A stretch of 64,000 nucleotides of DNA from an uncultured delta proteobacterium (GCA_963841435.1 CAWJCS010000003.1:64001-128000); one strand, 5' to 3'; positions 1 through 23,328 are shown, counted from the first letter of the stretch. Notes: generated by a model not told the origin, from the sequence alone. A program made the numbers and translations.

Positions 1-2245
<2,245 letters not shown>

Positions 2246-2264
2246 GTCGGGTTTTTGCCTTTTG

Positions 2265-3203
2265 TCATGGCTTCTCGCAAAAGACGCTCACGATTTCGAA
2301 ATGGGGCTTTTTGCGCTCGCGCGACGTGATCGCCGCGAGCTCGACGGTGAGGCCGCGTTCTTCGCACAGCGCCTGGAGCGCGATCGAGGAAAAACCGCCA
2401 TTTTCGTGACCGTAGCTGCGCGTGAGCGCCTGGTGCGGATGCTCGGCCAGCGTCACGAACGAAGAGCGACCTCCGGGGCGGAGCACGCGTGCGGCCTCCG
2501 AAACGACCACGCGCGGCTCACTCGCGTAGGTGAGCACGTTGAGCAGGAGAACCTCGTCGAAACAGGCGTCGCCGAAGGGCAACCCGTGCATATCGCCTTT
2601 GACGAAGCTCACGTTTTCGTGGCGCCCGAGCCGACGGCGCGCGGCCTCGAGCATGCGTTCGCTCGAGTCGAGCAGCGTGACGCTGCGGGCGCGGGTGACA
2701 TAGAGCTCGGCGACGGCGCCGTCGCCCGAGCCCACGTCGAGCACGTCGCCGAAGCGCGTGAGGCCGAGCAGCCCGCGCGCCGTCGCGTCCCAGGTTCGAC
2801 CCGGCGAGTAGTGCCGCTCGAGCTCGCCCGCGACCGAATCGACCCACGAGCCCGCGCGCTCGCGCAACAGCGCCTCGCGCCGGGCGCGGTCCCCCTCGAG
2901 CACGGCATCGCCCAGCTGAGCGGTGACGAGCTCCCAGAGCGCGCGCGCCGCAGCCGGCGTCGCCGGCCCCGCCTGCGTGTAGAACGTCGAGGCGCCGAGC
3001 TTGCGATCTCGCAGCATTCCCGACTCCCGGAGCCGGGCGAGGTGCGTCGAGACGCGCGACTGGGGCAGCCCCGTGATGTTCGTGAGCTCGGCGACGGTGA
3101 GCTCCTCGTCGGCCAGCAGCGACAGCAGACGCACCCGCGTCGGATCGGCAAAAGCCTGCAAGAGCGAGACGGAGGCCTCGAGGGAAACGGTACTATCAAT
3201 CAA
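2265..3203 (-). CDS. ArsR-HTH + SAM-dependent methyltransferase-like regulator (SahR/SamR type)
   Basis: N-terminal FADPTRVRLL...ELTVAEL...QSRVSTHLARLRESG (ArsR HTH); C-terminal VLDVGSGDG, GDMHGLPF, RVLRPGG. Directly upstream of metH. In-frame TTG 3203 chosen as start; start uncertain. Confidence 0.88.
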   Translation of the reverse strand: MIDSTVSLEASVSLLQAFADPTRVRLLSLLADEELTVAELTNITGLPQSRVSTHLARLRESGMLRDRKLGASTFYTQAGPATPAAARALWELVTAQLGDAVLEGDRARREALLRERAGSWVDSVAGELERHYSPGRTWDATARGLLGLTRFGDVLDVGSGDGAVAELYVTRARSVTLLDSSERMLEAARRRLGRHENVSFVKGDMHGLPFGDACFDEVLLLNVLTYASEPRVVVSEAARVLRPGGRSSFVTLAEHPHQALTRSYGHENGGFSSIALQALCEERGLTVELAAITSRERKKPHFEIVSVFCEKP

Positions 3204-3246
3204 TCCGGATGAACGGATTATAGCTCCCGCACCGTGCCGGGTGCAA
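3195..3246 (-). promoter_or_regulatory. sigma70-type promoter (TTGCAC-N18-TATAAT) overlapped by a palindromic operator
   Basis: Minus strand TTGCAC at 3246-3241 and TATAAT at 3222-3217. Inverted repeat AATCCG-N6-CGGATT at 3202-3219 and an overlapping ATCAA-N6-CGGAT at 3195-3210. Confidence 0.7.
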
Positions 3247-6205: not shown

Positions 6206-7306
6206 TCAGCGCTTGCCGGGCAGGAGCCGTGGCGGCCCACCGGCCGCGCTCCCTCGCACGCCGCGGTGGAGCACGAGCTTTCTGCCCGCCTCACGGCCTT
6301 TGGCGTACGCGTCGCCCGAGCGCGTGACGTGGTGCTGGGTCATGCGGATGCGCGGGTGCCGGACGCGGAAGAACGCGTGGAGGTCCCCGTCGCCGCGATA
6401 TACGAGCCCCTCGGCGGCGTGCTTGTGCCGCTCCCGCTCGAGCTTTTCACGAAACCCCGCAACGAGCCCCGCCAGAAAGCGCTCGCGATCGCCGCGGACG
6501 AGGCGGCCCTGGGCGAGCCGGTACTCGCGAAACAGCCGCTCGCCCGTGTGGCTCACGAACGCGTGAACGTAGGAGGCAAGCTCGAGGTTCTCGGGCGTGC
6601 CACAGACCTCGAGCACCGTCCCGCGCTTGCCCTCGAGCACGCGCCACACGGGCACCCAGATCACCTCGACGAAGAAGTGCTCGCCGAGAAGCGCCGCGAG
6701 CTGCCGCTGGCTCTCTCCCACCCTGCCCGCGGGAACCCCGAGGTGCAAATAGTCGTAGTCGGCGCGGCGCCCGCGTGCCGACACCTCCACGTTGTACTTG
6801 AGCATCAAGCGCTGCGCCGCGCTCATCGCCGCCTGCGCCTCGTGCTCGTTCTGGCTCTCGGCGAGCGCCAAGAGCTTGGCGATGCGATCGAGCACGTGCG
6901 TCTCGCGCAGGCTCTCGCGTGGGGCGCCCGCGGCGCGCGCGTCGATGCCGCGCTCGGCGCACACGCGACGATACAGCGGGCCGTGCGGCACCTCGTCGCG
7001 CACGCCGAGCACCTCGTCGACGTACTGGTGCGCCATTTCGTGCTTCAAGACCTCGACGAGCACCCCCCAGCCGTGCTCGACGAGCAACCCGCGCGAGAGC
7101 TCGAGCGTGCGCGTGGCGCCGATCCAGCGTCCGAGCCGGCCGCCTGCATCCGAGAGCTCGAAGGCGGGGGTCCGGAGGCTCGCGCGGAAGAGCGCGTGAT
7201 CGAGATCGTCGTACGTCGCACGGACGGCGCGGAGCGCGAGCCGCTGGAGCTCGAGCGACAGCGCGGCGCGGGGGGTGCTAGGCTCGGTTTTCCCGGAGTC
7301 CTTCAT
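6206..7306 (-). CDS. SprT-like zinc metallopeptidase + DUF2786 domain protein
   Basis: LKHEMAHQ...HGP (SprT HExxH) and [22 protein letters not shown]...AQRLM.KYN (DUF2786). Start uncertain. Confidence 0.8.
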
Positions 7307-9621
7307 GAAAAACGACGATGCGCTCCGCTATCACGAGCGCGGGCGTCCCGGAAAGATCGAGGTCGTCTCGACGAAGCCCGTCGCGTCCCAGCTCGATCTT
7401 TCCCTCGCCTACACGCCCGGAGTCGCCGCCCCCTGCCGCGAGATCTTCAGAGACCCCGAGCTCGTCAGCCGCTACACGGCGCGCCAGAACCTGGTCGCCG
7501 TCGTCACGAACGGCACGGCCGTGCTCGGTCTCGGCAACCTCGGCCCGCTCGCCGCGAAGCCCGTCATGGAGGGCAAGGCGGTGCTCTTCAAGCGCTTTGC
7601 CGACATCGACGTGTTCGACATCGAGGTCGACGAGACCGACCCGGCGCGGTTCATCGAGGTCGTGCGCGCGCTCGAACCGACGTTCGGCGGCATCAACCTC
7701 GAGGACATCCGCGCACCGGACTGCTTCGTGATCGAACGGGCGTTGCGCCAGCGCATGAGCATTCCCGTGTTTCACGACGACCAGCACGGCACGGCGATCA
7801 TCTCCGCGGCGGCGCTCCGTAACGCCGCCGAGCTCCAGGGCAAGGCGCTCGGTGAGCTCGCAGTCTGCTGCCTCGGCGCGGGCGCCGCTGCGACGAGCTG
7901 CATGCAGATGTGGGTGCGGCTCGGCGTGCGGCGCGAAAACGTCACCATGGTCGACGTGAACGGCGTGCTCGGCGAGGGTCGGCCCGACCTCGACGAGTTC
8001 CGGGCCGAATTCGCCCGCCCCGCGAGCGATCCGCGCCGGACGCTCGCCGACGCCATCGTGGATGCCGACGTCTTGATCGGGCTCTCGGCGGGTGGCCTCG
8101 TGACGCCCGCCATGCTGAAGACCATGGGCAAGAAGCCGATCATCTTCGCGCTCGCCAATCCCGACCCCGAGATCGGCTACGCCGACGCGATCGCGGCTCG
8201 GCCCGACGCCGTCGTCGCCACGGGGCGCAGTGACTTTCCGAACCAGGTCAACAACGTGCTCGGCTTCCCGTTCATCTTCCGCGGGGCGCTCGACGCGCGT
8301 GCCAGCACCATCACCGAAGAGATGAAGGTCGCCGCCGCCGAGGCTCTCGCCCAGCTCGCGCGCGAGGAAGTCACCGACGAGGTGCTGCGCGCCTACGGCC
8401 GGCACCGCATGCGCTTCGGTCGCGACTACGTGATTCCGAAGCCGTTCGACAATCGCGTGCTCTACTGGGTGGCGCCGGCCGTCGCCAAGGCGGCCGTAGC
8501 GTCCGGCGTCGCCCGCGAGCAGATCGACATCGACGAGTACAAGGAGCGGCTCTACCGCACGATCTCCGCCGACGCGCCGCGTGCTCTGGAACATCACCGA
8601 AACCGCCAAATCGAAGAAAAAGCGCATCGTTTTCCCGGAAGGCGACAGCGACTCCATCCTGCGCGCCGCCCACGTCGTCATCGAGGCGGGCATCGCCGAG
8701 CCCGTGCTGCTCGGCTCGCGCGAGCGCCTCACCGACCTCGCCGAACGCCTCGGCTTCGATCTCGAGGGCGCGCTGATCATCGACCCACGCGAGAGCGACC
8801 AGCTCGACCACTACGTCGACGTGTACTTTCGCAAGCGCCAGCGGCGCGGCGTGACGCGCCTGGCGGCATTGAAGGAGCTCCGGCGCTCGCGCACGGCGTT
8901 CGGCATGGTCATGGTCGCCGAGGGCGACGCCGACGGGCTCGTCGCGGGCGTACGCCAGCCGTACCCGGCCACGATCCGCCCCGCTCTCCAGATCATCGGC
9001 GTCAGGCCGGGCGTCAAGCACGCCGCCGGCATGTACATGGTGGTCACCAAGCAGGGCGTGCGCTTTCTCGCCGACACCACCATCAACATCGACCCCGACG
9101 CGGAGACGCTCGCCGAGATCGCCATGCTGGCCGCCGACGCCGTCGCCGAGCTCGGCGTGGAACCGCGCGTCGCGATGCTCTCGTTCTCGAACTTCGGCGA
9201 CGCGCCGCACCCGGCGTCCAAGAAAGTGGCAGAAGCCGCGGCCATCGTGCAGCGCCTGCGCCCCGAGCTGATGATCGACGGCGAAATGCAGGCGAACGTC
9301 GCGCTCGACGAGGACGCTCGCGCCGTCTACGCGTTCTCGAAGCTCAAGGGTCCGGCGAACGTGCTCATCTTCCCGAACCTCGACGCGGGCAACGCCGCCT
9401 ACAAGCTGCTCGCCGTGAGCGGCGCCGCCGACGTGATCGGCCCGATGGTGCTCGGGCTGCAGAAGCCCGTGAACGTGCTTCAACAGGGTGCGAGCGTCGA
9501 CTCCATCGTGCACATGACGGCCATCACGGCGGCCGAGGGCGCGAGCCGCGTCAACGGAGCCACGCCGAGCCCGGCCGGGAAGCCCGAGCGCGCGTCGCGC
9601 CCGCCACGCGCGAACGGTTGA
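7305..9621 (+). CDS. maeB: NADP-dependent malic enzyme with PTA-like domain; frameshift near 8567
   Basis: [66 protein letters not shown]; second frame RIVFPEG...DGEMQA...[16 protein letters not shown] at 7295. Confidence 0.95.
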
Positions 9622-14732: not shown

Positions 14733-15797
14733 TCAGCCGAAGAGCTCGGTGCCCACGCGCTTCTTCTTCGGGAACACGACCTTGCGCGCCACGAGATCGT
14801 TCACCGTGTCGCGCAAGGTTTCACCGGGGTCGCGGGGGCGGAAACCGAGCTCGCGCTCGGCCTTGCTGCCGTCGCAGTACCAAAAGTACTGGCTCATCTC
14901 GAGGCTCACCTCGTCGATGGGCGGCTCGCCGCCGATGCTGCGCACGGCGCGCGCGAACAGCCGACCGATGCCGAGCGCGAGCGGGCGCGACGACGGCAAG
15001 CGGAGCACGGGCGCCGGCACGCCGCTGATGCGCGAAAGCCGCTGAAAGAACGCCGCGAGCGTCAGATTCTGTGCGTTCAGGATGTAGCGCTCGCCGGGCC
15101 GGCCGCGCTCGGCGGCGAGCAACATGCCCTGGGCTGCGTCGCGTGCGTTGACGAACGCGATGCCGCCCGCGGGCGTCGCGGGGATGACCCCCTCGAGAAA
15201 GCGCCGCACGTCGCCCGTCGACGACCCGCGCAAGTCGCCCGGGCCGAGCAGAAGGCTCGGGTTGACGACCACGACCTCGAACGTGCCGGGCACGTTCGCT
15301 TCGATCGCCTCGCGCTCGCCGTAGAGCTTGGTGCGGTAGTACGGCCAGCTCGCGATGAGCTCGAGCGGAGCGCGGCAGCCCTCGTCGGCGACGCGCGCCG
15401 AGTCCTTGCCGACGGCGAGGGTCCCACTCGTGCTCGCCACGACCACGCGCCGCACGCCGGCCGCGCGCAGGCCCGCGAGCGTGCTCTTCATGCCGACGAC
15501 GTGAAGCTGGTAGAGCTCTTCGGAGGCGTCGCGGTCGCGCGTGACGCGGCCCGTCGCGACGAACGCGACCTCGGCGCCCTCCGCGCTCGCGCGCACGGCG
15601 TCGGCGTCGAGCACGTCGACGGCGCGCACGGCGCCGTCCGGCGTCCCGGAGCGCGAGATCGCGATCACGTCGTCGCCGCGGGCGCGCAGCGCTTGGGCGA
15701 CGTGCGCGCCCAGAAATCCCGTGCCGCCGCCGACCCACGCGCGGCGAGCACGCCCCGCGACGGCTGCCGTCGCGCCATTCCCATCGTCGTCGCTCAT
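14733..15797 (-). CDS. elbE: NAD-dependent epimerase/dehydratase (extended SDR), ElbE-like
   Basis: GGTGFLG, YYRTK (YxxxK), VNPSLLLGPGD. Starts 4 bp after the stop of the elbD-like gene. Symbol assigned from synteny. Confidence 0.8.
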   Translation of the reverse strand: MSDDDGNGATAAVAGRARRAWVGGGTGFLGAHVAQALRARGDDVIAISRSGTPDGAVRAVDVLDADAVRASAEGAEVAFVATGRVTRDRDASEELYQLHVVGMKSTLAGLRAAGVRRVVVASTSGTLAVGKDSARVADEGCRAPLELIASWPYYRTKLYGEREAIEANVPGTFEVVVVNPSLLLGPGDLRGSSTGDVRRFLEGVIPATPAGGIAFVNARDAAQGMLLAAERGRPGERYILNAQNLTLAAFFQRLSRISGVPAPVLRLPSSRPLALGIGRLFARAVRSIGGEPPIDEVSLEMSQYFWYCDGSKAERELGFRPRDPGETLRDTVNDLVARKVVFPKKKRVGTELFG

Positions 15798-15801
15798 CGG
15801 T

Positions 15802-18800
15802 TCACTCGCCGTCGCCGCTCGGTGCGCTCAATCGGAAGGTCTTCTGGAACTCGAGCAACAGCCCCACGTTGTTGGTCTTCACGGCCCCCGACAAGAACTC
15901 CGCGGGCGAGGGCACGTAAGCCTCGCGCACGATGCGCGCGAAGAGATCGGGCGACGTCTTCAGCACGCAATCGGCTGCGGCGACGTGCTTGCCGGGCTTC
16001 ACCTCGCAACCGTCCTTGGAAACGAGAAGCGTGAAGCGGTCGTCGCCGAGCGAAAAGTAGTAGCTCGTCGGCCGCTCGACGGTTTCGGGCGCGAAGCGCT
16101 GCTCGAGCTCCTGGAACACCTCGGACAAGGTGGGCGGCTTCTCGGGCTCGGGCAAGAGGTGCTCGGGACCGAGCGCGTGGGTGTCGAAAAGCTCTCCGCG
16201 CGAAAGGGCCCGCACGGCCCGCTCGACGAGGCGCGACGCGGCCCGCGACGCGTCCGCGGGCGAAAGATCGGCCGTGAGGCGCCGGAGCTCCGTCGCCTCG
16301 AGCACCGGACCGATGCGGGCCTCGACGTCGCGCCGCCGGATCAGCGTGGCGCCCTTCGGCAGGGCCTGGAAGGTGCCGCCGAGGTAAACGGGCAGGACGT
16401 CGATGGCGTGATGCAGGCTCATGTGCCCGACGGCAGCCTTGAACTCGTGGATCTCGCCGTCGGTGCTGCGCGTCCCCTCGGGGAAGACGAGCAGCGTCTG
16501 ACCCTCTTCGATGAGCTCGGCCGCCTTGCGCAGGCCCTGGCGCAACGTGCCGTTGCGCGGCATCGGCACGAGCCGCGTGAAGTTCTCGAAGTACGCCTTC
16601 CTGAAGCGGTTGCCCTCGAAGAAGTAGTCCTGCGCCGCGAGCGAAACGATGGCTTCGCCGTAGGTGCCGAGCGCGAACTTCACGAGCCCCATGTCGAGGT
16701 GGCTCGCGTGGTTCGCGGCCACGATGACGTTGCGATTGTGAGGGATGAAGGCGCGCCCGGAAACGCGGGTCTTCAACACCTTCTCGTAAAACCCGTGCTG
16801 GGCGCGGCCGAGCCAGTGCATCGCGGCCTCGCGCAGGGGCTCCGGCACCTCGAGCGACTCCGGCTCGGCCTCGACGATCGTGCTCGTCGAGGGCGCCATG
16901 GAGCGGCTCTGCTCACCGAGCACGGCCTCGACGTCACCGACCGTCTGGCAGGCGCTGAGGCGCTCGGCGTCGAGCGAGCGCCCGGCTTGGGCCTCGAGGG
17001 CGACGAGCAGCTCGAGCAACATCAGCGAATCGAAGCCGAGGTCGCCGCGCAGGGACGTGGTGCCGTGCAGCGAGGCCGGGTCGCGCCGCGCGATGGTCGC
17101 CGCGGCCGCCCGCACGCCGCGTGACACGCTGCTGAGCGCGCCGGGCGCCTGGCTCTTCGGCTCGCTCGCCGCGAGCACGCGCTCGAGCTGACGGCGGACC
17201 TCGGCGCGCTTGACCTTGCGGGTGCTCGTGCGCGGTAGCGATGAGTAGACGAGCGTGACGACGGCGGGGCGCTGGGCGCCGGGGAGCTCCGAAAGCGCGG
17301 CATCGAGCGCCGTCTTGGCGCGAGCGTGGCGCTCGGCGTGCTGAAAGGAATCGTCCGGCTCCGGCACGGCAACGAGCGCCACGCGCTCGCCCCCGCGGCC
17401 GTCGCTGATGCCGACCACGGCGAGCTCGGAGACGTGCTCGACCTGGCCGAGCCGCGCCTCGACGTCGTCGGGGTACACGTTCTCGCCGTTCGAGGTGACG
17501 ATCACGTCCTTGGCGCGACCCGAGATCACGAGGTTGCCACGCCCGTCGAGCTTGCCGAGGTCGCCGGTGCGAAGCCACCCGGCGGGGTCGATGGTCTCAC
17601 CCGTCGACTCCGCGTCGTCCGAATAGCCGAGCATGACGTTGGGGCCGCGCGCGAGCACCTGTCCGACGCCCTCGGCGTTCGGCTGCTCGATGCGGATCTC
17701 GACGCCGGGAATGGCCTTGCCGACGTGCCCGGAGCGCGCGCCGGGCCGCCCCTCCGCGACCGTGAGCACGGGAGCGGCCTCGGTGAGACCGTACCCTTCG
17801 GCAAGGTGGAGGCCGAGACCGGCGAAGAGCCGGTGCGTGCGCTCGGGCAGCGCCGCCCCACCGCTCACGAGAAAGCGCAGATTGCCGCCGAGACCCTGGT
17901 GGACGGGGCCGAAGAGCAGCCGCCCCGCGTCGATGCCCGTCGCCTTGCCGAGCGCGCGGTTCTGCTCCACCAGAAAGTCGAACACGTTGGAGAGCAGCGC
18001 ACCGCGCTCGGCCACGCGCGCGAGGATGCGCCGCTCGAGCATCTCCCAGAGCGCCGGCACGCCGATGAGCGCCGTGATGCGGCCCTCGTTGAGCGCGTCC
18101 TCGAGGCGCTCGGCATTCAGCTCGTCGAGGTAAACGACGCGTGCCCCCCGCGAGAGCGGCAGGAGCAGCCCACACGAAAGCTCGAACGTGTGGTGCAGCG
18201 GCAGCACGGAGAGCACGCGGTCGCCCTTGTCGAGCGGGAAGAGCGGCGCGAGCGACGCGATGAGCGCCGTGAGATTGCCGTGCGAGAGCTCGACGCCCTT
18301 GGGGCGGCCCGTCGTGCCGCTCGTGTAGATGAGGGCCGCGACGCCGTCGCGCGGGGCAGGCGCCGCAGCCGCCTCGCGACCGGGGGCTGTGGCCTCGAGG
18401 AGATCGACGACACAGAGCTGCCCGGCGAGCGCCACGCCGACGCGGGCGCGCGCCTTTTCGTCGAGCAGCGCGACGCGGGCGCGCGACGCCTCCGCGAGCG
18501 TGAGCGCGGCCTCCCGCTCGACCGCGGCCTCGAGCGGCACGACGGTGGCGCCCGCGGCGAGAATGCCGAAAAACGCGATCGGCCAGCCGGGATGGTTCTC
18601 GGCAGCGATGAGCACGCGGTCGCCCGGCCTGACGCCGAGATCCTGGAGCCGGGCCGCGCAGGCGAGCGAGCGCTCGCGCCACTCGCGGAACGTGATGCGC
18701 GTGAGCCCGCCAGGCTCGGCGCGCTGCAGCGCCACCGCGAGATCGTGGCGGTCGGCCATCTCGTCGAGCAGCGCCCACAAGGTCTCGTGCGGGCGCGGCG

Positions 18801-20466
18801 CCTTACGTGGTCGCTTCACCTTCGCGTCGATCTGCGGGAACACCCACTTCTCGAGGCCCGGCATGTGCACGTCGAAGAACCAGTGGCGCCAGTCGATGGC
18901 CTCGGGCGCCCAGGCAATCTTCTTGCGATCCGCCGGTGTCATGCGCGCACAGGCGGCGCGCACGTTGTCCGAGCGGAACACGTACTGGTACCGAACGGTG
19001 AACGGGACGAACACCTCGAGCACACCGCCGACCCGCTTCTGCTGCGCCGCGAAACGCTTCAGCGCGCTCGACGCGGGGCCGAGCAGCGACCGCGCGGGGC
19101 CGACGGCCGCCTTCTCGAGCGCGCCGGCGACGACGGACGCCCCCTCGGCGATGCGATACGGGCCGTAGCGGTCGAACTGGGTGTCCGAGATCAGCGCGCC
19201 CTCGAAGTGCGCCTGCAAGAACGCGAGGAGCGGGCCGCCGCGCGACGTGCGCTTGTAGTAGCGTCGCTTGTAGAGCCCCGTGAGCTCGAAGAAGCGGCGC
19301 ATCGTGCAGGGGTTCGTGTCGGTCGAGCCCAGCTGGTAAACGGCCTTGGCGCTGCCGTCGACGAGCTCGGCGAGCGCGGCCGTGAGGCCGCCCGCCACGA
19401 GATCGCAGGGGATGACGTCGAGGTAGTTGTCGGAGCCCGGGATCTGCAGGCCACCCTCGCGCAGGATGTAAATGAGGGGGGCGCTCGTGTTGATGCCCTC
19501 GTTCCAGCCGGGGAACGGATAGGAAAGCGTCGACTCGACGATGGCGGGGCGCACGATCGTGAACGGAAGCCCAGAGCGCGCGGCGATCTGCTCGCCGATG
19601 GCCTTCGTGTACGTGTACGTGTTCGGAAAGCCCCAGAACTGGGCGCGCTCCATGCCCGTCTCGGCGAGGCGGGCCTCGATGAATTTTCGCCGGACCTTCT
19701 CGACCTCCTGGTCGAGCACGGAGCCGCGCGCCGGCTCGCCCTTCTCGGCGAGGTTCTTCTTCGCCTCGGCGAGGAAATGGCTCTGGCGGAAAGCGTCGCT
19801 CGCGCGGTGCCGCGCCTGCTCGATGACGTCGAGGCACTCGGCGATCTCGCGGTCGGGGTTCCAGTGCGCGCGTTCGAGCGCGTCGGCGCGCGGGAAGGGG
19901 AAATCCAGCGGGTTCGTCTCGTGAATGTGCCCCGTGCGGCTGCCGGCGACGTAGCAGGTGCTCGTGTGGAGCAGCGGCAAGTCGCCGAGGTCCCGCGCGA
20001 GCGTCACGAGGTTCTGCACGCCGAAAGCGTTCACTTCGAGCGCCTCGTCGAGCGGCGGATCGAAATCGACGACGCCGGCGACGTTGACGACGGCGTCCAC
20101 CGCGCCGCGCAAATCCTCGCGCAGCGTCGCCGCGATCCCGCAATACGGCTGGACGACGTCACCCTCGATCGGCGTCACCTTCTGCCGCATGAACGCTTCG
20201 AAGTGCGGGCCGTACTGCTTCCGGAGCGGGTCGAACACCGCGGTCGGCACGATCTCGTCCCAGAAGCGTGCCTCCACCGAGCGCGCACCCTTCGGCCGCA
20301 CCACGAGGTACAGGTGCTCGATGGACGGGTAGTGCGAGAGCAGGAACGACCACCACGTCTTGCCGAGAAAGCCCGTTCCGCCGACGACGACGAAGCGCCG
20401 TCCGACGAAAATCTCCTCGAGATCGAGCGGGTGCGGCCCGGCTCCGTTCGACGAATCGCCGCTCAA
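15802..20466 (-). CDS. elbD: Multidomain fatty acyl-CoA reductase / acyl-CoA ligase / ACP / acyltransferase + SCP2-like tail (ElbD-like ether lipid enzyme)
   Basis: FAR: GGTGFLGK, YTYTK, IVRPAIV. A-domain: YTSGTTGRPKG, GYGLTE, RTGDLG. ACP: DLGFDSL. PlsC: NHASHLD, FPEGTRS. TTG start at 20466 overlaps the upstream TGA. Confidence 0.9.
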   Translation of the reverse strand: MSGDSSNGAGPHPLDLEEIFVGRRFVVVGGTGFLGKTWWSFLLSHYPSIEHLYLVVRPKGARSVEARFWDEIVPTAVFDPLRKQYGPHFEAFMRQKVTPIEGDVVQPYCGIAATLREDLRGAVDAVVNVAGVVDFDPPLDEALEVNAFGVQNLVTLARDLGDLPLLHTSTCYVAGSRTGHIHETNPLDFPFPRADALERAHWNPDREIAECLDVIEQARHRASDAFRQSHFLAEAKKNLAEKGEPARGSVLDQEVEKVRRKFIEARLAETGMERAQFWGFPNTYTYTKAIGEQIAARSGLPFTIVRPAIVESTLSYPFPGWNEGINTSAPLIYILREGGLQIPGSDNYLDVIPCDLVAGGLTAALAELVDGSAKAVYQLGSTDTNPCTMRRFFELTGLYKRRYYKRTSRGGPLLAFLQAHFEGALISDTQFDRYGPYRIAEGASVVAGALEKAAVGPARSLLGPASSALKRFAAQQKRVGGVLEVFVPFTVRYQYVFRSDNVRAACARMTPADRKKIAWAPEAIDWRHWFFDVHMPGLEKWVFPQIDAKVKRPRKAPRPHETLWALLDEMADRHDLAVALQRAEPGGLTRITFREWRERSLACAARLQDLGVRPGDRVLIAAENHPGWPIAFFGILAAGATVVPLEAAVEREAALTLAEASRARVALLDEKARARVGVALAGQLCVVDLLEATAPGREAAAAPAPRDGVAALIYTSGTTGRPKGVELSHGNLTALIASLAPLFPLDKGDRVLSVLPLHHTFELSCGLLLPLSRGARVVYLDELNAERLEDALNEGRITALIGVPALWEMLERRILARVAERGALLSNVFDFLVEQNRALGKATGIDAGRLLFGPVHQGLGGNLRFLVSGGAALPERTHRLFAGLGLHLAEGYGLTEAAPVLTVAEGRPGARSGHVGKAIPGVEIRIEQPNAEGVGQVLARGPNVMLGYSDDAESTGETIDPAGWLRTGDLGKLDGRGNLVISGRAKDVIVTSNGENVYPDDVEARLGQVEHVSELAVVGISDGRGGERVALVAVPEPDDSFQHAERHARAKTALDAALSELPGAQRPAVVTLVYSSLPRTSTRKVKRAEVRRQLERVLAASEPKSQAPGALSSVSRGVRAAAATIARRDPASLHGTTSLRGDLGFDSLMLLELLVALEAQAGRSLDAERLSACQTVGDVEAVLGEQSRSMAPSTSTIVEAEPESLEVPEPLREAAMHWLGRAQHGFYEKVLKTRVSGRAFIPHNRNVIVAANHASHLDMGLVKFALGTYGEAIVSLAAQDYFFEGNRFRKAYFENFTRLVPMPRNGTLRQGLRKAAELIEEGQTLLVFPEGTRSTDGEIHEFKAAVGHMSLHHAIDVLPVYLGGTFQALPKGATLIRRRDVEARIGPVLEATELRRLTADLSPADASRAASRLVERAVRALSRGELFDTHALGPEHLLPEPEKPPTLSEVFQELEQRFAPETVERPTSYYFSLGDDRFTLLVSKDGCEVKPGKHVAAADCVLKTSPDLFARIVREAYVPSPAEFLSGAVKTNNVGLLLEFQKTFRLSAPSGDGE

Positions 20467-22064
20467 GTCGCGCCTCCGCGCGGCAACGTCACGTCCCCCA
20501 TCACGATGGGTGGCACGTGGAGCAAGGTCACGTCGAGGCTCCGGGCCTCGCCGCCCCGCGCCCGATAGAGCGCGTCCTCCATGTTCGGCGCCGTTTCCCA
20601 GCCGAAAAGCTTCGGAATGTACTCGTTGTCCGCACCGACCACGATGACGCGGCCCACGTGCTGTCGCCCGTTCTCGCCCCAGTACCACATGAAGAAGGGG
20701 TGCGAGGGGTGGTACGCGTGCCCCGTGCGGAACATCTGCACGAGCGCCGGATCGCGCGCGTACTTTTCCTCGTAGCGCTCGCGAAGCTCGACGGCGTCAC
20801 GCGTCTCCGGCAGGATCCGGTGCACGAAATCGACGTACGGTGCGTGCTGCTCGTGGTCGAATTTGTCCGATGCAGGGGTGGAGCAAGATCAGCGTGCCGC
20901 CCTTCTTCACGAGCGGCGCGCCGCGGTACATGTTGAAAAGGTACCCTTGCGCGAGCACCTGCACGAGCAGCGGGTTCAAGAACGCATGCACGTTGTACGG
21001 GCTGATGTACGGCACGCCGAACACGAGCACGTCCGCCTGCCCCTCGATGGGCACGCAGTACTGCTCGAAGCTGCGTTCGACCGTGCGAGCGTGCACTTTT
21101 TCAACGTCGCCCGCCCACACGCCCGTCATGCCGTACGGCGCGGGAAAGCGGTCGAAAATCGCCTGGCGCGCCGGCTGGGGCAGCTTCTTCGTGCTGATGA
21201 CGAGCGCTTTCAGGAGCGCCTTCTCGCGCCCGCTGAGCTCGTCCTCGTTCTTCATCAAGAAATCGAGCGAAGCGATCGAACATGCGGTTGTTCACCGTCG
21301 TCTCGATCGTGAAAACATTGAGCTTTTCGTGCGCGAGGCGGCCCATCCGCTCGATGTCGCTCGCGAGCTGCGAGCGCGCGGGATCCATGTAGCTGTCCGA
21401 GCCGCGGATGGAGTGCGGGTTGTGGTGCGCGCGCAGGCTCCGGTAGTTGCAGAGCCCCACGGCGACCGATTTGTGGCCGCCGTTCATCGGCACGAAGTTC
21501 AAGTTCACGTAGATGAGCAAGTCGCTCTCGGCGGCGCGGCGATTGAGCTCGAGCACCTCGCCGCGCTCGGTCTCGCCGATCCTCGACGATGTTGGCGCTG
21601 TCCTCGGCGTCGTGGTTGTAGAGCCGGTCCGGCCAGTAGGCGTCGAAGATGCGATCGCCCACCATGTGGCGGATCTCGGCCGGTTTCATGCGGCGGTGCA
21701 CGCCCGTCGCCACGATGATCTCGATGTCCTCGACGCCGTGATCGGCGAGCATCTCGAGCAGGATCGTCACGAGCCGCTCCCGCACGTCGGGGCGCCGCAT
21801 GGGCGGCAGCGGCAGCGAGATGTCGTCGACGGCGATCGTCACCTTCATGCCGGGCTTGAGCTGCGCGTGCAGCGGATCCGAGCCGAGCGGATGGTTCAGG
21901 GCGTAGCGAATTGCCGCGTCCGGGTCCCGTAGCGGCTCGAGCGGGGGCTTCGGGTAGATGCAGCGCGTCCCGGGAGGAAGATCGACCTCCACCAGCTGAT
22001 CGCCGGAAAACAGCGTGCGCGGCGCGCTATCGCGCTCGAGTGTGACGAGGCAGGGATGATTCAT
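20463..22064 (-). CDS. elbC: Lactate racemase (LarA/DUF2088)-domain protein, ElbC-like; three frameshifts (near 21580, 21270, 20868)
   Basis: [54 protein letters not shown] across ORFs 21255..22064, 21101..21556, 20797..21258 and 20463..20825. Confidence 0.82.
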
Positions 22065-22094: not shown

Positions 22095-22763
22095 TCAGGC
22101 CGGCACCGTCAGATCGAAGCGGGGCCAGGAGTACGCCTTCGCGAGCAGCGCGAGACGGCGGTCGGGATTCACGGCCGCCGGATGGCCGACGACGCTCAGC
22201 ATGGGAACGTCGGAATAGCTGTCACTGAAGGCGAAGCACTCGTCGAGGTCGTGGCCCTTCTTCCGCGCGTGATCGCGGACAATTCGAGCCTTTTCGGGAC
22301 CCGCGACCACGGGCATCAGCAGCTTGCCCGTGGCGATGCCGTCCTTCATCTCGAGGCGATTGGCAATGACGTCGCCACCGCCGAGGTGGTCCGCCAGCCG
22401 CTCGACGATGAGGTCGAGCGCGCCAGAAACGAAAACGAGCTCGTGCCCCGCGGCGTGGCTCTTCTCGACGAGGCTCCGGGCCGCCGGAAACAGCGAAGGC
22501 CTGAGCACGGATTCGAAAACCTCGTCGGCGAGCACCACGAGCCGATCTTCACTCATCCCCGCGTAAGCACTGTACAAAAGCTCGTTGAACATCCGCCGAT
22601 CCAAAAGCTCGGCGAAAGCCATGCGCGGGGCGCGCAGCAGGGCCTTCCCAATCTGCATGGCCGTCTGCACGGGCGTGCCCTGGTTCACGAGATAAAAGAG
22701 GGTGGGCTGGATCAGGTTGGTCCTGACCAGCGTCCCGTCCACGTCGAAGTAACAGGCGGCCAA
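22095..22763 (-). CDS. elbB: HAD-IB family phosphatase, ElbB-like
   Basis: FDVDGTL (motif I), VSGA (II), EKA (III), FSDSYSD (IV), VNPD. Start TTG 22763 or 22784. Confidence 0.85.
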   Translation of the reverse strand: MAACYFDVDGTLVRTNLIQPTLFYLVNQGTPVQTAMQIGKALLRAPRMAFAELLDRRMFNELLYSAYAGMSEDRLVVLADEVFESVLRPSLFPAARSLVEKSHAAGHELVFVSGALDLIVERLADHLGGGDVIANRLEMKDGIATGKLLMPVVAGPEKARIVRDHARKKGHDLDECFAFSDSYSDVPMLSVVGHPAAVNPDRRLALLAKAYSWPRFDLTVPA

Positions 22764-22935
22764 CTCCGGCCTTCGGTCGCTCAAGTCGGGGGGGGCGTCA
22801 AGGGAACGCCTGGAATTGCCGCCAAAATGCCCGAAGGACTGGCGGGCCGGCCGGCGGGCTTTCGCGGCCGGCAGCCGGGTCGGCGGCAAGGCGATCTCGA
22901 AGCCCGGCAGGGCAAAATCGGGCGATAGTCGCGGG

Positions 22936-23328
22936 GTGTCGACCTCCGAGGCCGTGACGCACGGTGTGCGGGTGCGGGTGGATTGCCGGTTCTCGCCCGA
23001 GCGATCGGATCCGAGCCGGCGCGAATATTTCTTCGTGTACACGGTGACCATCACCAACGAAGGCCCCGAGCCCGTGCAGCTCGTCAGCCGCCATTGGATC
23101 ATCACCAACGCGCACGGGAAAGTCGACGAGGTGCGGGGCCCGGGCGTGGTGGGGCAGCAGCCGCGCCTCGCTCACGACGAAACGTTCGAATACACGTCGG
23201 GCTGCCCGCTCGACACGGCGTTCGGCTCGATGCGTGGCAGCTACGAGCTCGTGCGCGTCGACGCCCGCGAGCGTTTCGACGTGGAGATCGCCCCGTTCGC
23301 CCTACGCCAGGACGGCGTCTTCCACTAA
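22936..23328 (+). CDS. apaG: ApaG protein
   Basis: YTVTITN, QLVSRHWIIT, VRGPGVVGQQP, FEYTSGCPL.T.GSMRGSY. Confidence 0.95.
   Translation: MSTSEAVTHGVRVRVDCRFSPERSDPSRREYFFVYTVTITNEGPEPVQLVSRHWIITNAHGKVDEVRGPGVVGQQPRLAHDETFEYTSGCPLDTAFGSMRGSYELVRVDARERFDVEIAPFALRQDGVFH

What the first reader, a model, noticed from the sequence alone, without database searches (positions are those of the whole stretch)
21420..21840. ElbC homologue keeps the nickel-pincer (NPN) anchoring residues of LarA
Seen: DD (LarA D72 region), ATGVHR (H108), and [20 protein letters not shown] with Lys and His exactly 16 residues apart. That spacing matches K184 (cofactor tether) and H200 (Ni ligand) in LarA GGRKSVLPGIASYKTIMANH (recalled from memory). 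The R75 and H174 equivalents appear replaced. Known: NPN catalyses proton-coupled hydride transfer. Inference: a non-racemase hydride-shuttle step that could be the missing ether-bond or glycerol-backbone chemistry. No larBCE genes are in this window.
Basis: partly seen in the sequence, partly recalled or inferred. Interest (0 to 1): 0.72.

Follow-up and report, generated by a model that had tools for sequence, protein, structure and literature searches.

The report
Nickel-cofactor-type ElbC in ether-lipid operon
The unassigned gene elbC of a bacterial ether-lipid operon encodes a relative of nickel-dependent lactate racemase that keeps the cofactor-holding residues but not the racemase ones, which gives a testable idea for the unknown ether-forming step.

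Summary
The motifs are real. They lie on the minus strand in an elbB-elbC-elbD-elbE operon and align in register with LarA's Asp72, His108, Lys184 and His200; Arg75 and His174 are replaced.

Hundreds of similar breaks occur genome-wide. Short-read contigs lack the extra base at two of the three sites, so these are most likely assembly errors.

The residues are kept in 98-99 of 100 orthologous loci from several phyla. The closest solved structure is LarA_Sp, which carries the nickel-pincer cofactor on the aligned lysine.

Of 96 ElbC-bearing Myxococcota genomes, 94 have larB, 95 larC and 93 larE. In two loci these genes sit beside the elbC cluster.

The family is already catalogued: Desguin 2020 groups 14/15, and NCBIfam NF052592. 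That catalogue gives the same residue pattern and gene context, but I found no printed link to ElbC or ether lipids. This scan has noted the same idea on other genomes before.

Verdict: a new member of a known family. Cofactor use is likely (about 0.8). The ether-forming role is inference.

The parts
22095..22946 (-). elbB: HAD-IB family phosphatase. The listed ORF runs to 23108, but the coding signal starts near 22946.
   Evidence: Pfam HAD PF12710 E 4.8e-36; NCBIfam TIGR01490 136.7 bits against a cut-off of 98.3; codon-model segment 22098-22946.
21582..22064 (-). elbC piece 1 (residues 1-161). Holds Asp80-Asp81 (21827-21822) and the catalytic His123 (21698-21696).
   Evidence: tblastn with P0001: 93% identity, frame -3; Lar_N PF09861 87 bits.
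21581..21585 (-). Frame break 1: one extra base.
   Evidence: Frame change seen. A 151-base short-read contig of run X2 lacks one base at 21585, depth 2.6 of 2.6.
21274..21583 (-). elbC piece 2 (residues 161-263). Holds Asn187 (21505-21503), Asn189 (21499-21497), Lys198 (21472-21470) and His213-His214 (21427-21422).
   Evidence: tblastn frame -1; Lar_N profile positions 145-194; register with K184 and H200 of 5huq, and K195 and H211 of 9q2u.
21270..21273 (-). Frame break 2: one extra base.
   Evidence: A contig of run X2 lacks one base at 21273, depth 2 of 2. Contigs of X4 lack one base at 21270 or 21272.
20872..21273 (-). elbC piece 3 (residues 264-397).
   Evidence: tblastn 94% identity, frame -2.
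20868..20876 (-). Frame break 3: one extra base. No read contig bridges it.
   Evidence: No contig spans it.
20463..20876 (-). elbC piece 4 (residues 396-end). The stop TGA is at 20465-20463.
   Evidence: tblastn 93% identity, frame -3; sequence.
15802..20466 (-). elbD: fatty-acyl reductase, adenylating ligase, carrier-protein and acyltransferase domains. The likely TTG start at 20466-20464 overlaps the elbC stop (TTGA).
   Evidence: Pfam NAD_binding_4, Sterile, AMP-binding, PP-binding and Acyltransferase; sequence; codon-model segment 15804-20468.
14733..15797 (-). elbE: NAD-dependent epimerase/dehydratase-family (SDR) protein.
   Evidence: Pfam Epimerase PF01370 E 1.5e-22.

Best explanation
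The region is the elbC gene of an elbB-elbC-elbD-elbE ether-lipid operon in a Polyangiaceae-like genome. ElbC is a two-domain LarA-superfamily protein of about 532 residues (Desguin's group 14/15, NCBIfam NF052592).

Shown:
- It has the LarA fold.
- It keeps the Asp that holds the cofactor ribose, one catalytic His, the Lys that tethers the nickel-pincer nucleotide (NPN) as a thioamide, and the His 16 residues later that ligates Ni.
- It has no second catalytic His and no Arg75.
- The genome makes larB, larC and larE.

Inferred:
- ElbC binds NPN (about 0.8).
- It uses NPN for a one-sided hydride-transfer reaction, not a racemisation, on a phosphorylated glycerol-type lipid precursor (about 0.5-0.6).

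Most likely mechanism (about 0.2, pure inference):
1. The ElbD reductase domain makes a fatty aldehyde.
2. The aldehyde forms a hemiacetal with the sn-1 hydroxyl of glycerol-3-phosphate.
3. His123 deprotonates the C2 hydroxyl, and NPN takes the C2 hydride.
4. After loss of water, NPN returns the hydride to the aldehyde-derived carbon. The product is 1-O-alkyl-dihydroxyacetone phosphate, in a redox-neutral step.
5. ElbE reduces the ketone, the ElbD acyltransferase domain acylates sn-2, and ElbB removes the phosphate.

The three frame breaks in this window are most likely assembly insertion errors (about 0.8), so the organism's gene is probably intact.
For: Residues and homology:
- Lar_N hits on both N-terminal pieces.
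- The intact 93%-identical homologue P0001 scores 779.9 bits on NF052592, cut-off 740.
- Profile against PDB: 9q2u LarA_Sp E 4.5e-76, 5huq E 8e-29, with D, H, K and H in register.

Structure:
- AF2 model pLDDT 94, pTM 0.92.
- Foldseek TM 0.78/0.86 to 9q3k.
- VIA-align Z 41.0, rmsd 2.2 over 452 residues to 9q3k, and Z 29.4 to 5huq.
- LarA_Sp carries NPN on Lys195 with Ni bound by His211 (PMC12611868, sections 2.4 and 2.5 read).

Conservation:
- K198 in 99 of 100 loci, H214 in 98, H123 in 99, N187 in 99, D81 in 100, at 40-87% identity across Myxococcota, Actinomycetota and others.

Co-occurrence:
- 96 of 301 sampled Myxococcota genomes have ElbC. Of these, 94 have LarB, 95 LarC and 93 LarE.
- In all 31 genomes where ElbC is the only Lar_N hit, LarB and LarC are present.
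- The same holds in the complete genomes of Sorangium So ce513, Minicystis rosea and Salinilacustrithrix flava.
- larB, larC and larE lie next to the elbC cluster in L083 and L056, 2 of 100 loci.

Operon:
- elbB lies directly upstream of elbC in nearly all loci.
- Domain content.

Assembly errors:
- 514 candidate frame switches genome-wide, 423 of insertion type against 91.
- metH and a malic-enzyme/PTA gene in the same window are split in the same way.
- Contigs of run X2 lack the extra base at 2 of the 3 sites.
Against: - No cofactor binding, nickel content or activity has been measured for any ElbC.
- Frankia LarAH14 is in the same NCBIfam family. It was purified and supplied with NPN, and showed no activity in 7 racemase or epimerase assays (PMC7583248, table seen). 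That fits a non-racemase but proves nothing positive.
- 70 of 205 LarB+LarC-positive Myxococcota genomes have no Lar_N hit at all. A non-LarA NPN enzyme family also exists (PMC13524815, abstract). So larBCE presence is not specific to ElbC.
- The window's own genome has a second, canonical LarA homologue that could be the client.
- One genome (G262, locus L110) has a copy between elbB and elbD that has lost H, K and H, although it keeps larBCE.
- Relatives as close as 53% identity (P0122) also lack these residues.
- Arg75, which binds the cofactor phosphate in LarA, is Leu, Met or Val here.
- No elbC mutant phenotype is described in the review I read (PMC9131029, passages).
- Frame break 3 is not covered by reads. 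The contigs covering breaks 1 and 2 have depth 2-2.6 and 2-3 mismatches, so they may come from a close strain.
Confidence: 0.6

Rival explanations
1. ElbC binds NPN but acts on a soluble metabolite, not on the ether bond itself. It could be a one-directional epimerase or isomerase of a phosphorylated sugar, polyol or 2-hydroxy acid that supplies or trims the backbone or head group.
For: - NCBIfam names the family 'NPN-dependent hydroxyacid isomerase'.
- The closest solved relatives, LarA_Sp and LarA_Bw, lie beside glycolytic genes, and a phosphorylated sugar was modelled in the site (PMC12611868 section 2.6).
- The tightest partner of elbC is the HAD phosphatase elbB. elbD is unlinked in Sorangium, Polyangium and Minicystis.
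Against: - Wherever a fuller cluster is seen it is lipid-type: reductase, acyltransferase and ligase (and Desguin Table S1).
- The Arg75 position is hydrophobic.
- Frankia LarAH14 was inactive on 7 hydroxy-acid reactions.
Confidence: 0.2
2. ElbC has no cofactor and serves as a scaffold or binding subunit for ElbD or ElbB. The LarA residues would be inherited and not used.
For: - Degenerate relatives exist that lack H, K and H: Desguin's group 16, P0122 and others, and the copy in the elbC position of G262.
- LarAH14 was inactive.
- Arg75 is lost.
Against: - Near-invariance of D, H, K and H over 98-99 of 100 loci down to 43% identity and across phyla is not expected for unused residues.
- larBCE co-occurs with elbC and lies adjacent to it in two loci.
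Confidence: 0.08
3. In this organism elbC is a true pseudogene, inactivated by three 1-base insertions.
For: - The assembly reads three +1 shifts within 720 bases, while the adjacent 4.7-kb elbD is unbroken.
- Break 3 is not contradicted by any read contig.
- Broken elbC remnants do exist in another genome of the same family, G092.
Against: - All four pieces stay 92-94% identical to an intact homologue, apart from a variable loop, with no stops or other damage.
- All three shifts are of the same type as 423 of 514 genome-wide candidates, which come in patches.
- metH is broken in the same way.
- Short-read contigs lack the extra base at 2 of the 3 sites.
Confidence: 0.12

Closest known systems
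LarAH groups 14/15 of Desguin et al. 2020 (PMC7583248); NCBIfam NF052592 'NPN-dependent hydroxyacid isomerase, LarAH14/15/16 family'
   Same: - The intact homologue P0001 scores 779.9 bits, above the 740 cut-off.
- Their Table S3 lists the same pattern: D, L/I for R75, H, a gap for H174, K, H.
- Their Table S1 lists the same neighbours. For group 15 these are COG0451, COG0560 and COG1022. For group 14 they are COG0204, COG0560, COG1063 and COG3320.
   Different: Nothing in the protein differs. That work labels the groups 'unknown function' and does not use the word lipid, in the main text or in the two supplement files searched. The link to ElbC and ether lipids is what is added here.
ElbC of the Myxococcus xanthus elbA-E ether-lipid operon (Lorenzen et al. 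2014, known to me only through the review PMC9131029)
   Same: Same order, elbB (HAD), elbC, elbD (multidomain) and elbE (SDR), on one strand. The review calls elbC a protein of unknown function.
   Different: No elbA lies next to the operon here. I could not fetch a record named M. xanthus, so orthology to that exact gene rests on synteny and on Anaeromyxobacter group-15 sequences seen in Desguin's supplement.
LarA_Sp and LarA_Bw, single-histidine LarA-like enzymes (PDB 9q2u/9q3k, 9q3j; PMC12611868)
   Same: - Best sequence and fold match: E 4.5e-76, Z 41.0 with rmsd 2.2 over 452 residues.
- Both halves of the protein align.
- Tether Lys, Ni His, ribose Asp and one catalytic His are shared.
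- The second catalytic His is absent, with Asn in the loop.
   Different: - Only 21-25% identity.
- LarA_Sp has Lys at the Arg75 position, whereas ElbC has Leu, Met or Val.
- The loop with the Asn differs in length, so the exact equivalent (N187 or N189) is not settled.
- Their neighbours are glycolytic genes, not lipid genes.
Lactate racemase LarA of Lactiplantibacillus plantarum (PDB 5huq)
   Same: Same fold (Z 29.4). D72, H108, K184 and H200 are conserved in register.
   Different: - H174 and R75 are replaced.
- About 100 extra residues.
- It scores 94 bits on NF033504 against a cut-off of 460, so it is not a lactate racemase.

Membership tests
LarA superfamily (Pfam Lar_N PF09861) | Match to the N-terminal domain model above its gathering score | tested here: met
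   Window piece 1 scores 87 bits and piece 2 scores 26.9 bits, against a cut-off of 23.3.
LarA superfamily | Two-domain LarA fold | tested here: met
   Tested on a model of the 93%-identical homologue P0001, not the window's own broken reading. pLDDT 94; Z 41.0 to 9q3k and 29.4 to 5huq.
LarA superfamily, NPN-binding members | Tether Lys (K184) and Ni-ligand His (H200) 16 residues apart, ribose Asp (D72) | tested here: met
   Alignments to 5huq and 9q2u. Window codons are 21472-21470, 21424-21422 and 21824-21822.
LarA superfamily, NPN-binding members | Arg75, which binds the cofactor phosphate and the substrate carboxylate | tested here: not met
   Leu in the window; Leu, Met or Val in 100 loci.
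LarA superfamily, NPN-binding members | Cofactor actually bound (Ni, thioamide adduct) | not testable with these tools
   Needs protein purification and mass spectrometry.
LarA superfamily, NPN-binding members | larB, larC and larE in the same genome | tested here: met
   Own genome: LarB 272 bits, LarC 425 bits, LarE 300 bits, all over their cut-offs.
LarA-type racemases/epimerases | Two catalytic histidines (H108 and H174) | tested here: not met
   H108 is present. The H174 loop reads Y-V-N-L-N-F-V, with no His.
Lactate racemase proper (NCBIfam NF033504) | Score above the equivalog cut-off of 460 bits | tested here: not met
   P0001 scores 94 bits.
NCBIfam NF052592 LarAH14/15/16 | Score above the equivalog cut-off of 740 bits | tested here: inconclusive
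   The intact homologue P0001 scores 779.9 bits. The window's own first piece scores 237 bits, because the gene is split by frame breaks.
ElbC of the elb ether-lipid operon | Position between a HAD phosphatase (elbB) and the multidomain elbD, followed by an SDR (elbE) | tested here: met
ElbC of the elb ether-lipid operon | Orthology to the M. xanthus gene by direct comparison | not tested
   No record named M. xanthus was obtained. The best 80 loci and the names held none.
LarA_Sp/LarA_Bw subfamily (Desguin group 17) | Invariant Asn at the topological position of His174 | tested here: inconclusive
   N187 is invariant in 99 of 100 loci. Sequence alignments place H174 on N189, or place LarA_Sp Asn185 in an insert. 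No residue-level superposition was available.

The most novel reading that the evidence does not exclude
ElbC is the missing ether-forming enzyme of the aerobic, AGPS-independent bacterial pathway. It would be a nickel-pincer hydride shuttle that performs a redox-neutral reductive etherification. It takes the C2 hydride of the glycerol-phosphate backbone and returns it to the fatty-aldehyde-derived carbon, giving 1-O-alkyl-dihydroxyacetone phosphate. This would be the first NPN enzyme in lipid biosynthesis and a new route to ether bonds.
Probability: 0.2. Interest if true: 0.85.

Novelty: new member of a known kind. Interest (0 to 1): 0.55.

Why it matters
The review I read (PMC9131029, 2022) calls the steps from fatty acid to alkyl ether lipid in the ElbD pathway unknown, and calls elbC a gene of unknown function.

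ElbC keeps the nickel-pincer cofactor site. It travels with larBCE. It also belongs to a LarA group that the LarA field left as 'unknown function' after one inactive member. Together these points join two literatures that I did not find citing each other.

They also suggest direct tests:
- nickel and larBCE dependence of ether lipids;
- the cofactor adduct on Lys198;
- deuterium tracing from C2 of glycerol phosphate.

For this particular window the gene itself is an ordinary member of that family, and its apparent breaks are probably assembly errors.

Tried and rejected
- Apparent ElbC-ElbD fusions. Open frames of 1286-2104 aa were listed. The one checked (G058, locus L095) is a 561-aa frame with a stop before elbD, so no fusion is claimed.
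- The search for related loci with the broad alignment A1 failed for lack of a conserved stretch. A closer 9-sequence alignment, A2, was used instead.
- An alignment that included locus references failed on a terminal stop. It was redone with protein ids only.
- I tried to find M. xanthus ElbC by name through cluster members and through a second homologue search from locus L100. Only MAG names came back, and family f35 is not Myxococcaceae by those names.
- Read support for frame break 3: no contig of X1-X4 bridges 20863-20871, so nothing can be said there. Contigs of run X1 do not cover any of the three breaks.
- Programmed frameshifting was considered and dropped. The three sites share no motif, and they match the genome-wide insertion pattern.
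- A residue-level structural equivalent of His174 could not be obtained, because the fold tools give ranges only.
- No complex prediction was run. I make no binding claim.

Full report
**What is there.** The window is about 69% G+C. It is G000:C3:64001-128000 of a 7.78-Mb genome in 6 contigs. On the minus strand lie four genes in a row:
- a HAD-IB phosphatase (about 22946-22095);
- a LarA-like gene (22064-20463);
- a 1554-residue multidomain protein with fatty-acyl reductase, adenylating ligase, carrier-protein and acyltransferase domains (20466-15802);
- an SDR of the NAD-dependent epimerase family (15797-14733).

This is the order elbB-elbC-elbD-elbE of the Myxococcus xanthus ether-lipid operon, as described in the review PMC9131029 (passages read). 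That review calls elbC 'a protein of unknown function'. The elbC stop and the likely TTG start of elbD overlap as TTGA.

**The observation.** A profile built from 34 relatives aligns to the PDB sequence of L. plantarum LarA (5huq, E 8e-29). It aligns far better to LarA_Sp (9q2u, E 4.5e-76). In these alignments:
- the second Asp of VDD falls on D72 (Asp73 of LarA_Sp);
- the His of GVHR falls on H108 (His115);
- the Lys of GGHKS falls on K184 (Lys195);
- the second His of HH, 16 residues on, falls on H200 (His211).

R75 is Leu. The H174 loop (YVNLNFV) has no His. So the recalled LarA motif was correct, and the statement about R75 and H174 holds.

The gene is not one open frame here. tblastn with the intact 532-residue homologue P0001 (93% identical) gives four collinear pieces in frames -3, -1, -2 and -3. 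Reading the DNA, each junction is explained by one extra base that doubles a neighbour.

I asked whether this is peculiar to elbC. A codon-usage Viterbi segmentation of the whole genome finds 514 places where coding signal jumps frame on one strand with no stop nearby. Of these, 423 are of the one-base-insertion type and 91 of the other type, and they come in patches. This is a heuristic count, not a validated one.

Two of the five other candidates in the window were confirmed by split domains:
- metH is broken inside its S-methyltransferase domain near 1535;
- a malic-enzyme gene continues into a PTA domain in another frame near 8576.

Public short-read contigs were laid on the gene. A 151-base contig of run X2 (2 mismatches) lacks one base at 21273. 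Another (3 mismatches) lacks one base at 21585. Depth is only 2-2.6, and nothing bridges the third site. I read the breaks as assembly insertion errors (about 0.8), with a true pseudogene as the minority reading.

**Family.** P0001 has 3351 relatives at E<=1e-3 among 1.84 billion cluster representatives, 333 of them at E<=1e-30. A broad alignment of 56 full-length relatives splits in two:
- members with DD, GxHR, GGxKS and HHNP;
- degenerate members that have lost His, Lys and His, for example P0122, which is still 53% identical.

I collected 100 loci: 80 public contigs and 20 regions of sampled genomes. Counts among them:
- K198 is kept in 99;
- H214 in 98;
- H123 in 99;
- N187 in 99;
- D81 in 100.

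The exceptions are L063, which is truncated, and L110. L110 (genome G262) is a 40%-identical copy between elbB and elbD that has lost all of these residues.

Eighty positions are invariant in at least 98 of the 99 full-length sequences compared. They include a set of His and Tyr in the C-terminal domain: H324, Y356, Y374, H406, Y409, H451 and H454.

**Structure.** The AF2 model of P0001 is confident (pLDDT 94, pTM 0.92).
- Foldseek ranks 9q3k and 9q3j first, then the racemases 9eid, 6c1w and 5huq.
- VIA-align gives Z 41.0 (rmsd 2.2 over 452 residues) to 9q3k, Z 37.6 to 9q3j and Z 29.4 to 5huq.

In LarA_Sp the cofactor density is continuous with Lys195, and Ni is completed by His211. The second catalytic His is replaced by Asn, the substrate is unknown, and no lactate racemase activity was found (PMC12611868, sections 2.1, 2.4-2.6 read).

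**Does it travel with the cofactor genes?** The own genome has larB and larC side by side on contig 4 and larE on contig 6, all above the curated cut-offs. It also has a second, canonical LarA homologue with D..R, both His, Lys and His+16. So the own genome alone does not decide.

In 301 Myxococcota genomes of at least 90% completeness, 96 have an ElbC orthologue (best E <= 1e-150; 49-78% identity). G262 (degenerate copy) and G092 (remnants with stops) were set aside from both classes. Of the 96:
- 94 have LarB, 95 LarC and 93 LarE;
- the misses are G001, G123 and G213, fragmented assemblies of 90-93% completeness.

Of the other 203 genomes, 110 have LarB, 113 LarC and 109 LarE. These genomes are related, so the figures are descriptive, not a test.

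In 31 genomes ElbC is the only Lar_N match, and all 31 have LarB and LarC. Among named genomes, Sorangium sp. So ce513, Minicystis rosea DSM 24000 and Salinilacustrithrix flava have ElbC as their only Lar_N match. All three have LarB, LarC and LarE.

Against this, 70 genomes have LarB and LarC but no Lar_N match. A non-LarA family of cofactor-using enzymes is now known (PMC13524815, abstract). So these genes are not specific to ElbC.

The strongest link is adjacency. In L083, a Solirubrobacteraceae MAG, all on one strand, the order is: larB, larC, larE, a reductase-HAD fusion, a Zn-dehydrogenase, ElbC, an acyltransferase. In L056, a Nannocystaceae MAG, larB, larE and larC lie divergently, one gene away from elbB-elbC-elbD. 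That is 2 of 100 loci.

**Context across loci.** elbB sits directly upstream of elbC in nearly all loci. elbD and elbE follow in many. In Sorangium, Polyangium and Minicystis they do not, and only elbB-elbC are linked. The actinobacterial form replaces the SDR by a Zn-dehydrogenase and fuses the reductase to the HAD domain. The same set of activities is therefore kept in two architectures.

**What is already known.** NCBIfam holds NF052592, 'NPN-dependent hydroxyacid isomerase, LarAH14/15/16 family'. P0001 passes its cut-off (779.9 against 740) and fails that of lactate racemase (94 against 460).

Desguin et al. 2020 (PMC7583248; sections and two supplement files searched) report the following:
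- Groups 14 and 15 are listed as 'unknown function'.
- Table S3 gives D, L or I, H, gap, K, H for D72, R75, H108, H174, K184 and H200. Anaeromyxobacter genes are in group 15.
- Table S1 lists as neighbours COG0451, COG0560 and COG1022 (group 15), and COG0204, COG0560, COG1063 and COG3320 (group 14).
- Group 16 lacks the residues.
- Frankia LarAH14 was purified and showed none of 7 activities.
- The word lipid occurs nowhere in the main text or the two files.

Literature searches (PubMed Central CC-licensed papers plus bioRxiv; subscription papers such as Lorenzen 2014 are not covered):
- 'ether lipid' with 'lactate racemase' found no paper.
- 'elbC' with 'ether lipid' found only the 2022 review.
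- In a six-term search, none of the 25 papers listed out of 83 combined elb terms with LarA terms.
- A 2026 preprint on sponge elb clusters does not contain 'racemase' or 'DUF2088'.

This scan's own earlier notes on other genomes already read ElbC as a nickel-pincer LarA homologue at least ten times. Two of their leads, group 15 and NF052592, I checked and confirmed here.

**How it most likely works.** Shown: fold, residues, operon, and co-occurrence and adjacency with larBCE.

Inferred: ElbC binds the cofactor and uses its single His to start a hydride abstraction that is not followed by re-addition from the other face.

The set of partner activities is a reductase that gives an aldehyde (the review reports an i15:0 aldehyde dependent on elbD), a ketoreductase-type SDR or Zn-dehydrogenase, an sn-2 acyltransferase and a phosphatase. 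This set fits a redox-neutral reductive etherification in which the backbone C2 hydride ends on the aldehyde carbon, giving alkyl-DHAP. By my own knowledge of the eukaryotic pathway, alkyl-DHAP is the same intermediate that AGPS makes.

I give this specific scheme about 0.2. A role on a soluble phosphorylated precursor is the main rival.

**Verdict.** The gene is an ordinary member of a catalogued LarA group. Its link to ether-lipid synthesis is a good, testable and apparently unpublished inference, not a demonstrated function.

Noticed in passing
window 1-2245, minus strand: metH (cobalamin-dependent methionine synthase) is split by a frame change near 1535, inside its S-methyltransferase domain. 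Profile positions 1-191 lie in one ORF. Positions 201-282, plus the pterin-binding and B12-binding domains, lie in another.
   Followed up: partly
window 7275-9621, plus strand: The malic-enzyme domains (7275 onward) run without a stop into a PTA_PTB domain that is read in another frame from 8581. This looks like a maeB-type fusion gene broken by a one-base insertion near 8576.
   Followed up: partly
whole genome G000 (for example C4:881-888 kb and C6:1,177-1,183 kb): A codon-model scan finds 514 same-strand frame switches without a nearby stop. Of these, 423 are of insertion type and 91 of deletion type, and they cluster in patches. The pattern looks like long-read assembly error. The count is heuristic and unvalidated beyond five sites in the window: the three elbC breaks, metH and the malic-enzyme gene.
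   Followed up: partly
L003 (G000:C2:1111364-1114819), minus strand 766-3222: A second LarA homologue in the same genome has the full canonical set by eye: D..R, both catalytic His, and Lys with His 16 residues later. It is another possible client of larBCE.
   Followed up: partly
L110 (G262:C30:60459-75994), 7001-8509: A 40%-identical copy sits between elbB and elbD. It has lost the catalytic His, the tether Lys and the Ni His, in a genome that still has larB, larC and larE.
   Followed up: no
G092:C1:874993-875978: A 1.8-Mb single-contig genome of the same family holds only elbC remnants with several stop codons. It has LarC and LarE matches but no LarB match.
   Followed up: no
301 sampled Myxococcota genomes: 70 genomes have LarB and LarC but no Lar_N match, which points to another cofactor-using enzyme family in this phylum. 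Whole families lack all of them: f2 has ElbC in 0 of 18 genomes and LarC in 1 of 18.
   Followed up: no
L083 4574-6808 and about 6900-7935: The actinobacterial elb-like cluster fuses the fatty-acyl reductase to the HAD phosphatase. It also carries a Zn-dehydrogenase where myxobacteria have the SDR elbE.
   Followed up: partly
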